64,000 nt of DNA, from positions 1 through 64,000 of the forward strand of contig NW_024705185.1 in the NCBI RefSeq assembly GCF_018977255.1, given 5' to 3'. Position numbers: made by a program. Below, piece after piece: positions 30,001 to 48,000 of the stretch. This DNA is from Callorhinchus milii. Taxonomy: Eukaryota. Numbering within the stretch: position 1 is the first letter of the stretch; each line of letters begins with the position of its first letter.

Positions 30001-33000
30001 TGTATATTCACTATACAATTACGATACTATATATTACTTTGTACATTGTTTTAAGCATATACATTTTATACTATTTATTATTATAGACTGTACCATTGAC
30101 CGTCGTGTGAAAGACACTAAGAGGAAGCAACGAAATATGTCAATGGGAGAGTAGTGGGGGGAAACTTGCAGCGGAGCAAAGAATCCATTCCCTGCAGAGT
30201 TACAATGCCAGTGAGTGGAACGCGGTCTGAAAGTCACCGTAAACGTGAACACAATCAGTTAAGATCCGAAATGGTTTATTACATCCTTCCAATGATTGCT
30301 AAGCCAGAATCCATCTTCTCGGTTGAAATTGTCTCTGTGTTTGTATATGTGGATCGCCTCATGAACGAATCTCTCATGGTAGCCAGATGGCTTGCAGAGA
30401 ACCTCTGTCTTGGAGAAGTCAATATCATGTGAGCCCACTGAATTGTAACAGTGATCTTCCACGGCTGAGGTGTTTGTCCTACCGTGTTTCAAGTCTGCTT
30501 TATGTTCACGGATGCGGTCCGAGACATGTCGTTTGGTTTCTCCAATGTAACTGCTACCACAGAGGAAACTTAGTTTGTAGACGCCAGGGTACTGTATGTC
30601 TGGAACCACATCTTTTACAGACGGGACTAGATCACGGATTTTATGTACTGTGTTGAAACATATACAAACACAGAGACAACTTCAACCGAGAAGATGGATT
30701 CTGGCTTAGCAATCATTGGAAGGATGTCTTTGACAATCAGGCATAGCTACTTTTTTGTCACGCACACCGAACTGGTAACAGTCTTTGGAGCGGTTTTGAT
30801 GGTTTTGCCAGATTGGCCCGGAACCACCGGATAATCTTGGAAGCTGGATAATCACGTGCCGGATAATCGATGGTCAAACTATATATTCTGTTATTCTTTA
30901 TTAGGGTTCACCTCTCGGCATCCATTGCACCAGTACACGGTGGCCCTCCCATAGTCGATTCTAACAGGTTGCCATCGACAGATATGAAACCGTGACTAAA
31001 AAATGTTGCATTTGCTCTACAACGCCCTGCGTCCCACAGGACTTCACGATGAAGGAGTTTGAGCGGATGAAGGACACAAACACAGTGCGATCGTATTTGG
31101 TGTCCAAGGAACGACTCGAGGTGCTGTATCAGCTGTTGAAAGAGATGAACGCAGACTTCATGCAGCCCGGGGGCTACCAGAAATACGAGGCCGCAATGCA
31201 GGAGTTGGATGAAGAGTATCGTGCTACAGAGGGACTAGGAGACGAGGTGACTTACACTCTCCATGTGCATATTCTTCCTGATGTTTCCTCCGTTCTGTAG
31301 GGTTTGTTCTTGCTGCTCCTCTTTCTCTAATTGTTCATGTCCTGGGACAGCATCTCTATGTCCACTCCACCGGCCATCATATCCTGTTCTCAACCACTTC
31401 CAACCATATGTATTTCTATTTAACACGTCGTGGGTTTTCGCGACCAATATTATCCATAATAGAGGTTGTTTGGGTTAGATCGTGTACATATCTGAATAAC
31501 CCAACCAGTAATGGATATCCATTGAAATGTATATGAATACATTAACTGCCAACCCCCCTCTGAACTTGACACCTGATTGGCTCACAAGTGATGACATCAC
31601 ACTTATCTGCTCTAATTAAAACCGAGACAGGAGGAGGATTTCTCCACAATTTTGGGTGTCACCTGGCGAGGCTGGTTGTAATTACCGGCGGAACATCACG
31701 ATACTTTAATTGTTAACGTTGTAGTGGTTTTACTCTCCAACACACCAGTTAGTGCTGAGCTAGTAACGAATTGGCACGTTTTGTTTACGTGACAAACCTT
31801 ACTGATTGGCTGTGTCAAGTGGTGGCGGGATCAACGACGCATTTATATTTACGCGATCTAACCAAAAAAAATCTCTTATTTCTATGCCTACTTTTCTGTC
31901 TCCGCCCCGGTGCTTGCATCTTCATCTAGTTCTTTTCCATATGCAAACATCAATACCAGAGAGACAGATGTGGGCAGGCTTTGTGCTGGCTACACCACCC
32001 CTATTGTGTGCCGTGCTGACATCACCAGGTGCTGGCCTTGCTGCAATTGCCTGTGTAGGCTACAATGTATACTATTACAACAAAAAGTGTTTTATTCTAC
32101 CAGGTGTAAGGGACCACTGAGCTATCTGGCTATTTTCAGAAGCGACCTGGCCATCATGCATGATAGCCCAATGAAGTAGCTTATCATCATGTGGCAATTT
32201 GTCGCAGCAAAATACGCGAAAAGCGCGATGTTGATTCTAAATGTGGAGGGGATAACGGAGCACCCTGGAGAAAAATCCACACGACCACGGGCAGAGAGAG
32301 ACAAGCAATCTCTAAATATACAGCAGGCGCCAGAGTCGGGTTGGAACCCATGACCTCCTATACACAAGGCGAGGTATTTAACTTCTCATAGCCACCGTGG
32401 CACACACCGGGGCAAAAACCCTCCCCTAACCTGCGGGTGTCTGCCAGCAACACTGCATTGAAAGCAATGTCATTGAGGGAAGGGCTTATGTCGGTCAGCT
32501 TATTACCCTCACGGTGCGCTCTCATCCACCATAGTGGCTAACGGAGGGCCACTGGGCAGGTTTGTGGAGGCTGCTGAACCCCGCACTTTCCGCTCATTAC
32601 CATGGGGACTAGAGAGACAATGTTCAGAGCAAGCAGGTTACGGGAGCACCGAAAGGACAGGAGTCAATTGACCTCTCCTAGCCACAATCCCATTTGATGG
32701 AGCCAGGGGGAGTAAAACACATCTCCTGCCTATTTCAGGCTATAGCTGTCAGTGAAACAGAGCACATTGCTGATAGCTTTGCACTGCCAGAAGTGGCGCG
32801 AAGACCAAACTTACTAATATTATCACGAATGACCGTGGGTGTCATTCACCGCTCCCCTTATACTCTCGTTTTCCTCCCTCAATGTCGATGCATATGTATC
32901 ATTTTGCATGGCACATTGAGATTCTTTTCTGTTTCTGTCCTTCCAGAAAGACAAAGCCTACAAAGATTTCATGGAAAAAAATAAGGATCGTGCAAAACAA

Positions 33001-45000: not shown

Positions 45001-48000
45001 GCAATTTTTATTATCGGCTCAGCTTTGCAAATCAAGAAGACGAATATGCAGTCTATTTCTGTCGTTGGTGCACTGGTGCCTATGTCTGAGTCTGCGATGA
45101 TAATTCGGGTAATGTTTGACAAAAATCTTAATCTCAAATGCCATGTAAAACAAAAAAACATCTGCCACAATTGTAACGACCACATCCGGGCACTCCGTCA
45201 CGTGCGACCGGTATTGGACAAAGAGACCGCGAGGTCACTCGCTTGTAGTATGGTTACAGCGTTTGGAGCGGTTTTGCCGGATCAGCCCGGGACCGTCGGA
45301 TAATGTTGGAAGCCGGATAATCGATGATCAACTGTATATACATAAGGCACTTTGAGGTGTTGATGGATTAAAGAAACGCCACTTACATGCACACCCTCAA
45401 TCCTTAATGATTACAGTGACACCTCTCGAAGACGAACTCCGGGGTAAGCCGGATATTGGGCAAAAAGATAGCGAGGTTCTCTGGAATATACCACCACCAT
45501 GAGGGAGCGAGTGGTGTCATCCGTTGTCTCCACGTGTGTGCGCGTGCAGATCATCATGAGGATGTTCAACGACAAGCTGAATGACATCCAGAAACACACG
45601 GATGAGAACATAAGGGAGATCCAGAAGACTCACCAGAAGGAGATGGACAGTGTGAAGAATAAATCAAAGTGCGTGATCTGTTGACAGCAGTTCTCCTGCT
45701 GTGTTGGTCTCACCTGATAACGGTTGCTTGTGTTGCGATCGAAACGTCGTGATCTATTAATTTTCTATCGACGTGACTTTACCGAAAGAACCAGAGTCAT
45801 TTAATATAGCATAATACATACAATCACATGAACATCTGAGTATCACTCCCTCGTTCCTCTTGGCGCAAATTGATGACATAGTGGTGGGAGGACATTTTTG
45901 CAAATCTGACAACTGCTGAGAACGATTGATTAAGGGCGCTTTATAAATTAGTATTTTATTGATGATGATGACGATGGTTGTAACTATCAGGGGAAACATC
46001 TGCACCCCATTGTTAAATGTCATGAGATTACTCTCCGGCAACATATTCGAATGTTGTGCTCAAGGGGTAATACATAAATTGGCCACGTTTGTTCACTTGA
46101 CAACATTATGAATTAGCCGTGTTGGTTGGAGGAGGGTCAACTCATGCAATTTGACGCCAAAAATGTTTTATTTGTGAATGAGGGTTACAAGTGTGTCTCC
46201 ATTTGATCACAATATGGTTATCATATTTCTTGACCGGTAAGTCCTGTTTTCTATTGGCATTTAAGAAGATGAAGGAAAAAAGCAATTGTTTAAAAATGCA
46301 TTGCATAAAAAAATTCTCCCCATATTGATTTTAAGATTTTTTTTCTGGCATTCAAGGCCTTGAATGGACATGCTCCTCCCTACATCCATAACCCGCTTCA
46401 TCCATTATATATTCCATCAAGATCATTAAGATCCTCACATTGTACTTTGCTCACTTTCACCCCGGCCTCCATGCTTCACACGTTGTTTGATCTTAAGCTA
46501 TTTCGCCTTTCCATGCACAGCGCTCCTCAGAACGATTTTTTAAGGCTGCTTTATTCATTATAATTATTATTGATTGTTCCGAGTCCCTTGGCTTGTGGAT
46601 TTTTATAGTTTTGTTACGCTCTGGAAAAGGGACCTATGAAGAGGTGACTGCCAAAAACATGATTATGAGCGTGCTGCTTTAACAATTGAGACTTCTGGAA
46701 GATGTATTATGAACAACCGGTGGTGGTCTTCTGCCCACCGCGTGATTAGTATATCGTTACAGAGAGCCCTCATTCTGGAATATGATCAGAAATGCACGGC
46801 TTTAAGATGGGGAGGGATGTCTTGTGGAAGACGACGGTTAATAGCTGATGATGGGTGGTTCGCCATTCTTAGGATGGTTGTCACGCGGTGGAGCAGGTCA
46901 CAGTGTGTGTGTGTACGTATGCATGTGTGTATGTTGAACTTCTTTCGCACCGTACGTAGCCAACCGTGCTAATCGGAGGTAGTTTTGGTGTACTGTATAG
47001 TAATGTAGTATATAATCGTGTGTGTATTTTGCACTTCTTTCACACCGTGCGTAGCCAACAATCAAAACTATCCAGTCTAACTCCTTTTCTGCTCATGAAG
47101 CAACAAACAATTTAACACTAACACACACAGACAGAGATCCCCCGTATAGACTCAACATACTGTTGGGGCAAGTGCTGTTAGCGAGCACCTATAAAGGCTA
47201 GCACGACACGAGGGGGTGGCTGGCCAGCAGCACGGCCGGCCGCCTTTGTCTCCCCAGTGACGATGTTTACACACAGCACCAGGTCCTCATATGAGGCTGA
47301 GTTGAACTATGGGGAGCCCCAGAACGGGTTCAGATAATGTTCACTGGTGTTGGCTTTGGGTCGGAACCGAAGTCGGGTAAACAGGTTCGTGGTGCGGCGC
47401 GTTAATTGCTATACTACCGTTCCCCACTCAACCACACACACACAACCACACGTACACAAAACACAACACAGCCCAACTTTGACACAGGTTACTTGCTCAA
47501 CTCAAACTCCCGTTGATGGCTCCGTCTTCGCGTGTAAGCAGAACTTCGTGTTCGCTGGATGAGTATGTGCGATTGCTTTCCTGTGAATCATTCGAAAATC
47601 GAGCTGTTGACAGTGATGGCTGTCATCCTGATGAGTTACCCACAGTCCACTCAGTCCACCTTAGAGTCGACTCAAACGGCTTTCTCCGCAACTCAGCCTC
47701 ACGACTTCGTTCAGTCCGTGAAGTACCTGGCACGAATTTTCACGATACATTTACAAGATACTTCTACACATCCATTACTGCTCACGTAATATGGTTTTAC
47801 TCACGAGCAGAGATCCTTTCATATTCCCTTCTTTGATTCGTCCAATTTCTACTAAAATTCATTATTTACAAGAATGTATGTACTAAAATAACCATATATA
47901 TGGTGGCAATTTACCTTATGCTACGGTAAAACTAATACTGCCTAAAGTTACTTAATTACATGTACTGCAATATTATTATTTTTAATTAATTCCAAATTAA

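What the first reader, a model, noticed from the sequence alone, without database searches (positions are those of the whole stretch)
31040..45684. GBP gene apparently lacking its GTPase domain but keeping an open helical domain and CaaX box
Seen: four in-frame exons with no stops encode ~180 aa ending CVIC, with an in-frame ATG at 31049. Upstream there is under 4 kb, mostly Penelope debris, before the 5' region of the opposite-strand SLC37A3. I found no P-loop or DTEG exons in the window. Known: GBPs need the N-terminal GTPase and some are prenylated via CaaX. Possibilities (inference): a GTPase-less membrane-anchored GBP regulator or decoy; a GBP whose giant intron hosts SLC37A3 and MUS81; a young partial duplicate; or a misjoin.
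Basis: partly seen in the sequence, partly recalled or inferred. Interest (0 to 1): 0.65.

Follow-up and report, generated by a model that had tools for sequence, protein, structure and literature searches.

The report
Orphan tail of a GBP gene
The last four exons of an interferon-type GBP immune gene sit alone among transposons without the exons for its GTPase engine, most likely a young leftover gene fragment, not a new kind of protein.

Summary
Four + strand exons (31040-31246, 32947-33049, 35135-35238, 45550-45684) have AG/GT borders and compatible phases. They give 182 open codons (179 from the ATG at 31049) ending KCVIC-stop.

GBP identity is real but thinly supported by tools. Only exon A matches Pfam GBP_C (E 8.9e-5, below the curated cut-off, profile 107-168 of 297). 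The exon sizes 207/103/104 nt mirror mouse GBP exons 8/9/10 (213/103/194). So this is the equivalent of exons 8-11, about the last 60% of the helical domain and not all of it.

No GTPase exon was found. There is no P-loop or DTEG motif in six frames. No Pfam GBP hit came from 723 other open frames.

Introns are kept, so this is not a retrocopy. Upstream lie about 340 bp of unassigned DNA, then Penelope-like debris. The last intron holds a young gypsy element.

Most likely (0.55) it is a young, non-functional partial copy or deletion remnant. An expressed GTPase-less, prenylated GBP tail (0.15), an assembly error (0.15) and far-upstream 5' exons (0.05) remain open.

The joined protein was deliberately not built, searched or folded.

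The parts
31040..31246 (+). Exon A, equivalent of GBP exon 8 (207 nt, 69 codons, phase 0/0). It contains the in-frame ATG at 31049.
   Evidence: Sequence and splice sites. Pfam GBP_C E 8.9e-5, 22.5 bits (cut-off 24.3), profile 107-168/297. Mouse exon 8 is 213 nt.
32947..33049 (+). Exon B, equivalent of GBP exon 9 (103 nt, starts in phase 0, ends in phase 1).
   Evidence: Mouse exon 9 is 103 nt in every mGBP locus. No Pfam or PDB hit on its own.
35135..35238 (+). Exon C, equivalent of GBP exon 10 (104 nt). It has the same length modulo 3 as mouse exon 10 (194 or 182 nt) but is 30 or 26 codons shorter.
   Evidence: No Pfam or PDB hit on its own.
45550..45684 (+). Exon D, the terminal coding exon (44 codons plus TGA). 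It ends in a lysine-rich stretch followed by the CaaX-type tetrapeptide CVIC.
   Evidence: No family hit on its own. CaaX-like endings occur in 17 of 1328 frames.
30682..31039 (+). Unassigned DNA just upstream of exon A, presumably what remains of the intron before it. It ends in a pyrimidine-rich acceptor. No TATA box was seen by eye. No strict ISRE match occurs anywhere in the window, and the one GAS match lies at 2621.
27837..30681 (-). Penelope-like retroelement debris. The larger copy (27837-29514) has its frames broken. A 5'-truncated GIY-YIG end lies at 30259-30681. Inverted 146-nt repeats lie at 29295-29440 and 29671-29816.
   Evidence: RVT_1 E 3e-10 and GIY-YIG E 4.4e-4 (below cut-off). 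Self-BLAST.
35919..42640 (-). Ty3/gypsy LTR retrotransposon, antisense, inside the last intron. The LTRs are 537 nt with 4 differences, have TG..CA ends and are flanked by a 4-nt CTTG duplication.
   Evidence: RVT_1, RNase H, integrase and aspartyl protease domains.
35242..35681 (.). Element of about 440 nt with terminal inverted repeats (19-nt arms, 84% complementary), inserted 3-4 nt after the donor of exon C. Its flanks read TAA on both sides.

Best explanation
The locus is the 3' end of a guanylate-binding-protein gene, the equivalent of canonical exons 8 to 11. It would encode the back part of helix alpha9, then alpha10 to alpha13, a lysine-rich tail and a CaaX box. It stands without exons 1 to 7, which carry the 5' UTR, the start codon, the whole large GTPase domain and the first third of the helical domain.

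The introns are still in place, so the fragment arose at the DNA level. It is either a partial segmental duplicate broken in the intron before exon 8, or what was left after the 5' half was deleted or replaced in transposon-rich DNA. It is not a retrocopy.

Shown: the exons, their intactness, the absence of recognisable GTPase exons in the window, and the transposon setting.

Inferred: it makes no working GBP and is a young relic. On a neutral model the frame and splice sites would rarely survive more than about 3-5% divergence, so the event is recent if the fragment is unconstrained.
For: Exon anatomy and an open frame of 182 codons.

Exon A matches Pfam GBP_C at profile 107-168/297, E 8.9e-5.

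Exon sizes 207/103/104 nt compare with mouse GBP exons 8/9/10 at 213/103/194 nt. Length modulo 3 is the same in all three. In mouse there are eleven exons and the ATG lies in exon 2 (PMC2387175, section 6).

Exon A begins at a strong acceptor, as an internal exon does.

No GBP GTPase was found. There are 0 P-loop or DTEG motifs in frames of 30 aa or more on either strand. PF02263 was hit by 0 of 334 + strand frames of 30 aa or more upstream, by 0 of 113 in the introns and downstream to 49.5 kb, and by 0 of 276 frames of 48 aa or more on the minus strand and the far + strand. The same scans did pick up exons of the neighbouring genes (MFS_1 in 3 frames, HHH_8 in 1) and transposon domains, so the method finds real exons.

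No second copy of any of the four exons lies in the window.

No strict ISRE match occurs anywhere in the window, and the only GAS match is at 2621. No AATAAA or ATTAAA occurs for 3.1 kb after the stop.

Precedent: GBPs evolve by birth and death with pseudogenes (PMC9005921, passages). Mouse has a pseudogene locus of only 3.7 kb (PMC2387175, passages).
Against: Nothing in the four exons is broken. There is no stop, no frameshift and no lost splice dinucleotide. The CaaX box, the lysine-rich tail and an ATG with A at -3 are all present. That is also what a selected short gene would look like.

My neutral model gives P about 0.07 for such intactness at 3% divergence and 0.01 at 5%. It assumes equal substitution rates and an indel rate of one tenth. 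So the fragment is either young or constrained, and I cannot tell which.

GBP identity by tools rests on one exon, scoring below Pfam's curated cut-off. Exons B, C and D have no family hit on their own.

Heavily decayed GTPase remnants with stops every 30 codons or fewer would have escaped my frame-based scans.
Confidence: 0.55

Rival explanations
1. A working, GTPase-less short GBP. A new, transposon-derived or shared promoter gives a non-coding first exon that splices to 31040, or transcription starts just upstream of it. Translation starts at the ATG at 31049. The product is a 179-residue helical protein that is prenylated at CVIC. It sits on membranes and modulates or caps assemblies of full-length GBPs.
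For: All four exons, all seven splice dinucleotides, the CaaX box and the basic tail are intact. The ATG has A at -3. Intactness is unlikely beyond about 3-5% neutral divergence. Parts of human GBP1 can act without the GTPase domain (PMC6156764, abstract and passages).
Against: Exon A has the form of an internal exon, and no promoter feature or interferon element was found near it. Two out-of-frame ATGs lie within 70 nt upstream. No standard polyadenylation signal follows for 3.1 kb. In the human work the GTPase-independent activity maps to the start of alpha9 (residues 376-382), and alpha10-13 or alpha12-13 alone were inactive. By my arithmetic the fragment begins after that site. My two literature searches turned up no natural GTPase-less GBP protein.
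Confidence: 0.15
2. An assembly artefact. The gene is full-length in the animal, and its 5' exons were lost or placed elsewhere by a misjoin or collapse in the repeat-rich stretch 27.4-31.0 kb.
For: That stretch consists of Penelope-like copies and other repeats present several times in the window. Mouse offers a direct precedent: two supposed GBP pseudogenes turned out to be parts of mGbp8 that an incorrect assembly had split with the Abcg3 locus (PMC2387175, passage).
Against: The window holds no N. About 340 nt of unique DNA run continuously into exon A. Nothing in the sequence marks a junction. Read-level evidence is not available here.
Confidence: 0.15
3. A full-length GBP gene whose exons 1-7 lie more than 31 kb upstream, beyond the window. 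A giant intron would then contain the SLC37-family gene and MUS81 on the other strand.
For: Exon A has a good acceptor that calls for an upstream donor.
Against: None of the 334 other + strand frames of 30 aa or more between 1 and 31039 has any GBP or GBP_C hit. The intron would have to exceed 31 kb and hold two whole genes. In mouse the longest whole GBP locus is 44 kb.
Confidence: 0.05
4. Not GBP at all: chance open frames rich in K, E and Q that happen to splice in frame.
For: Only one exon has a family hit, and it scores below the curated cut-off. The PDB searches per exon found no GBP chain. The Atlas search gave nothing.
Against: E 8.9e-5 against the whole Pfam library, for an exon chosen beforehand. 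It is the only GBP_C hit among the 724 frames scanned. The exon-size and phase match to mouse exons 8-10 includes an exact 103 nt. The CaaX sits at the very end of the last exon.
Confidence: 0.07

Closest known systems
Canonical vertebrate GBP genes (mouse mGbp1-11; human GBP1/2/5; rainbow trout GBP with CaaX)
   Same: Exon A matches GBP_C. Exon sizes and phases correspond to exons 8, 9 and 10. The C-terminus carries a CaaX after a basic stretch, as described for human GBP1/2/5 and trout GBP.
   Different: There are no exons 1-7, so no GTPase domain, no start codon of the family type and no first third of the helical domain. The exon-10 equivalent is 30 codons shorter than in mouse. No other GBP gene lies within the 64 kb, whereas mammalian GBPs lie in tandem clusters.
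GBP pseudogenes: mouse pseudomGbp1 (a 3.7-kb locus) and pseudomGbp2 (first two exons inverted); human GBP1P1
   Same: These are incomplete or disabled GBP loci produced by the birth-and-death turnover of the family. GBP1P1 is reported to be transcribed and to act as an RNA decoy (PMC11264600, title and start of abstract in the search listing only).
   Different: Here the retained exons carry no disabling change at all, and the fragment lies beside unrelated genes (an SLC37-family gene and MUS81). I did not see the exon content of pseudomGbp1, because the figure is not held.
Laboratory fragments of human GBP1 (helical domain 291-592, alpha9-11, alpha10-13, alpha12-13)
   Same: The reading frame here covers roughly what those constructs call late alpha9 to alpha13, and it adds the CaaX box.
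   Different: Those are engineered constructs. The anti-proliferative activity needs residues 376-382 at the start of alpha9, and alpha10-13 and alpha12-13 were inactive. By my estimate the fragment starts near residue 385. That estimate comes from mouse exon sizes plus human numbering and is not an alignment.

Membership tests
Guanylate-binding proteins (GBP, dynamin superfamily) | N-terminal large GTPase domain with P-loop and DTEG-type motifs (Pfam PF02263) | tested here: not met
   0 motif matches in frames of 30 aa or more, six frames. 0 PF02263 hits in the 723 frames scanned besides the control. The motif forms are recalled.
Guanylate-binding proteins (GBP, dynamin superfamily) | C-terminal helical domain (Pfam GBP_C, PF02841), complete | tested here: inconclusive
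   Exon A only: E 8.9e-5, 22.5 bits against a cut-off of 24.3, profile 107-168 of 297. Nothing matches profile positions 1-106. Exons B-D are undetectable alone. The joined model was not searched.
Guanylate-binding proteins (GBP, dynamin superfamily) | Conserved exon structure (eleven exons; exons 8/9/10 of 213/103/194 nt in mouse) | tested here: met
   207/103/104 nt with the same length modulo 3. This holds for the exons that are present. Exons 1-7 are absent.
Guanylate-binding proteins (GBP, dynamin superfamily) | C-terminal CaaX box (only some members) | tested here: met
   The frame ends CVIC-stop after KNKSK. That a final C directs farnesylation is recalled and was not tested.
Guanylate-binding proteins (GBP, dynamin superfamily) | Interferon-responsive promoter (ISRE/GAS) and induced expression | tested here: not met
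   0 strict ISRE matches in the window, with 1.45 expected by chance. The one GAS match lies at 2621, far away. The consensus forms are recalled. Expression cannot be tested here.
Processed pseudogene (retrocopy) | No introns; poly(A) tail | tested here: not met
   Three introns are kept at phase-compatible positions.
Partial duplicate or truncated gene fragment | A contiguous subset of exons with introns, the rest of the gene absent nearby | tested here: met
   The equivalents of exons 8-11 are present, and no other GBP exon lies in the 64 kb. Whether a parent copy exists elsewhere cannot be tested here.

The most novel reading that the evidence does not exclude
The fragment is a living gene for a 179-residue, prenylated, GTPase-less GBP tail (late alpha9 to alpha13). 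It would be expressed from a promoter captured in the transposon-rich upstream DNA. It would insert by its lipid and basic tail into membranes or into coats of full-length GBPs, and act there as a built-in brake or decoy. That would be a natural dominant-negative in a family thought to need its GTPase.
Probability: 0.13. Interest if true: 0.6.

Novelty: new member of a known kind. Interest (0 to 1): 0.22.

Why it matters
As it stands this is an annotation point. Gene predictors may call a short 'GBP-like' protein here, and it should be flagged as a 3' fragment equivalent to exons 8-11. It shows the birth-and-death turnover of an immune gene family in transposon-dense DNA.

It would matter more if transcripts proved that the open frame is used. 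No natural GBP consisting only of the lipid-anchored tail turned up in my two literature searches. Such a protein would give a handle on how GBP coats are restrained.

Tried and rejected
I replaced it with scans of stop-free frames.

2. PDB sequence searches with each exon found no GBP chain. Exon A's best hits were designed pentatricopeptide repeats at E 0.02, which I take as noise.

3. The ESM Atlas search with exon A gave a best score of 0.82 to bacterial DUF1380, below the level the tool calls meaningful.

4. AlphaFold on exon A alone gave mean pLDDT 60.3 and four helices. That is too weak for a fold search, so none was run.

5. A search for extra coiled-coil-like coding pieces in the introns and flanks, to explain the short exon C, found only transposon frames. 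Reading exon C on past its donor gives a non-helical frame that stops at 35305-35307.

6. tblastn of each exon against the window found no paralogous copy.

7. ISRE, GAS, CpG and poly(A) checks gave nothing that marks a promoter or a nearby 3' end.

8. I could not find the first coding exon of the SLC37-family gene.

So no paralogues, no orthologous loci and no dN/dS.

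Full report
**What is there**

On the + strand four exons can be read with canonical borders:
- A: 31040-31246, 207 nt.
- B: 32947-33049, 103 nt.
- C: 35135-35238, 104 nt.
- D: 45550-45684, which includes the TGA stop.

The phases fit. A ends in phase 0. B starts in phase 0 and ends in phase 1. C completes the split codon and ends in phase 0. D starts in phase 0. This gives 182 codons without a stop. From the ATG at 31049, which has A at -3, it gives 179. The frame ends KNKSKCVIC-stop.

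The window has no N. I do not take it for human. It carries Penelope-like elements, an apparently intact gypsy element and a Sleeping-Beauty-type transposase.

The joined protein was never built, searched or folded. The cost is that exons B-D have no family assignment of their own.

**Is it GBP?**

The tool evidence is thin.
- Exon A matches Pfam GBP_C at E 8.9e-5 and 22.5 bits, just under the curated 24.3, over profile positions 107-168 of 297.
- Exons B, C and D give nothing in Pfam.
- None of the four gives a GBP chain in the PDB.
- The Atlas search and a single-exon fold at pLDDT 60 were uninformative.

Independent support comes from gene structure. In mouse, every GBP locus has eleven exons and the start codon lies in exon 2. 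Exons 8, 9 and 10 measure 213, 103 and 194 nt, with exon 10 at 182 nt in mGBP5 (PMC2387175, section 6 read in full). The borders I had fixed beforehand give 207, 103 and 104 nt. The middle exon is identical in size, and length modulo 3 is the same in all three.

With the CaaX at the very end, I take A-D to be the equivalents of exons 8-11.

Arithmetic on the mouse exon sizes, using the human GBP1 limits quoted in PMC6156764 (passages: globular domain 1-290, alpha9 376-424, alpha12-13 484-582), puts the start of exon A near residue 385. That lies inside alpha9. This is an estimate and not an alignment.

So the fragment keeps about the last 60% of the helical domain. The exon-10 equivalent is 30 codons shorter than in mouse.

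**Is the rest of the gene in the window?**

No P-loop (GxxxxGK[ST]) or D[TS]EG motif occurs in any frame of 30 aa or more on either strand.

I then scanned stop-free frames one by one against Pfam, always including the exon A frame as a control.
- All 334 other + strand frames of 30 aa or more from 1 to 31039.
- 113 + strand frames from the introns and downstream to 49.5 kb.
- 276 frames of 48 aa or more: 235 on the minus strand and 41 on the + strand beyond 49.5 kb.

Frames wholly inside the two gypsy elements were left out of the last two scans.

None matched the GBP GTPase family, and none but the control matched GBP_C. The same scans did find MFS_1 (3 frames), the MUS81 helix-hairpin-helix domain and transposon domains, so real exons are detectable this way. 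Remnants broken by stops every 30 codons or fewer would be missed.

No exon has a second copy in the window.

**Surroundings**

- Upstream of exon A lie about 340 nt of unassigned DNA.
- Then come a 5'-truncated Penelope-like end (30259-30681, minus strand) and a larger decayed copy (27837-29514), with RVT_1 and a weak GIY-YIG hit.
- Further upstream, on the minus strand, are an SLC37-family gene and a MUS81 first coding region. For SLC37, the exon at 11660-11962 matches SLC37A2 residues 394-456, and MFS_1 hits support it. The MUS81 region lies at about 6.4-6.8 kb.
The most 5' coding exon I recognise by eye is at about 23.4-23.65 kb.
- Intron C-D (10.3 kb) holds an antisense Ty3/gypsy element at 35919-42640. 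Its LTRs differ at 4 of 537 positions, and a 4-nt target duplication flanks it.
- An inverted-repeat element of about 440 nt sits 3-4 nt after the donor of exon C.
- There is no strict ISRE in the window, and the one GAS match lies far away.
- The first AATAAA or ATTAAA is 3.1 kb past the stop.

**Interpretation**

The introns are kept, so the fragment is not a retrocopy. It is a DNA-level partial copy, or the remnant of a gene that lost its 5' half.

Exon A looks like an internal exon: it has a good acceptor and no promoter feature. The family is known for birth-and-death turnover with pseudogenes (PMC9005921, passages). One mouse pseudogene locus is only 3.7 kb long (PMC2387175, passages). 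I therefore rate a non-functional relic as most likely, at 0.55.

The main point against this is that nothing in the retained part is broken. A simple neutral model counts 86 single-base routes to a stop and 14 splice-site bases, and assumes indels at a tenth of the substitution rate. It gives about 0.07 for such intactness at 3% divergence and 0.01 at 5%. The fragment is thus either young or under constraint, and I cannot separate the two here.

**Rivals**

- A working GTPase-less, prenylated tail protein: 0.15. Human work shows GTPase-independent activity of the helical domain. That activity maps to residues 376-382, and alpha10-13 alone was inactive.
- An assembly error in the repeat-rich 27.4-31.0 kb: 0.15. 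Mouse gives an exact precedent, in which a wrong assembly split mGbp8 into two 'pseudogenes'.
- 5' exons more than 31 kb upstream, across two other genes: 0.05.
- Not GBP at all: 0.07.

**Novelty**

My searches for natural GBPs lacking the GTPase domain found none. One search returned 0 papers. One search returned 35 papers, of which 12 were listed, and none described such a protein. One listed paper reports the human pseudogene GBP1P1 acting as an RNA decoy (PMC11264600, listing only).

These searches cover open-access text only, and supplements were closed. The figure of PMC2387175 that shows the exon content of the pseudogenes is not held.

I file the locus as a new member of a known kind, a GBP gene fragment or pseudogene, with low interest unless transcripts show that it is used.

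Noticed in passing
window 35919-42640 (-) and 53616-60355 (+): Two copies of one Ty3/gypsy LTR retrotransposon lie in opposite orientation 11 kb apart, about 86% identical over 6.8 kb. The first has LTRs differing at 4 of 537 positions and long open gag, protease, RT and integrase frames, so it inserted recently. Inverted copies this close could mediate an inversion of the DNA between them.
   Followed up: partly
window 21697-23014: A tandem array of a 52-nt unit (25.5 copies, 95% matches), also readable as 103 or 155 nt. It is C-rich on the + strand and lies inside what should be a 5' intron of the minus-strand SLC37-family gene.
   Followed up: partly
window 35242-35681: An element of about 440 nt with 19-nt terminal inverted repeats and TAA on both flanks, lying 3-4 nt after the donor of exon C. 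It leaves the first six intron bases GTAATA. The TAA flanks recall Harbinger-type elements, which is my recollection and was not tested.
   Followed up: partly
window 60308-61237 (+): A Tc1/Sleeping-Beauty-type transposase: HTH_SB at E 1.2e-25, followed by a second frame that reads like the catalytic part.
   Followed up: partly
window 17743-18117 (+) and 18893-19270 (-): An inverted pair of frames rich in G, W, R and V (GWG/GRG-type low complexity) inside the SLC37-family gene region. Its nature is unknown.
   Followed up: no
window 20000-32000: CpG observed/expected is mostly 0.6-1.0 and up to 1.5 in 300-nt windows, without distinct islands. CpG depletion is weak, so CpG islands cannot be used here to find promoters.
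   Followed up: no
window 62838-63861 (+): Long open frames (202 and 173 aa) rich in P, S, L and T in GC-rich DNA at the window's end. They had no clear Pfam family in the pooled scan, so they may be a gene exon or just low-complexity sequence.
   Followed up: no
window 45685-48805: No AATAAA or ATTAAA occurs for 3.1 kb after the stop codon. From base composition I estimate about 3 would be expected by chance.
   Followed up: no
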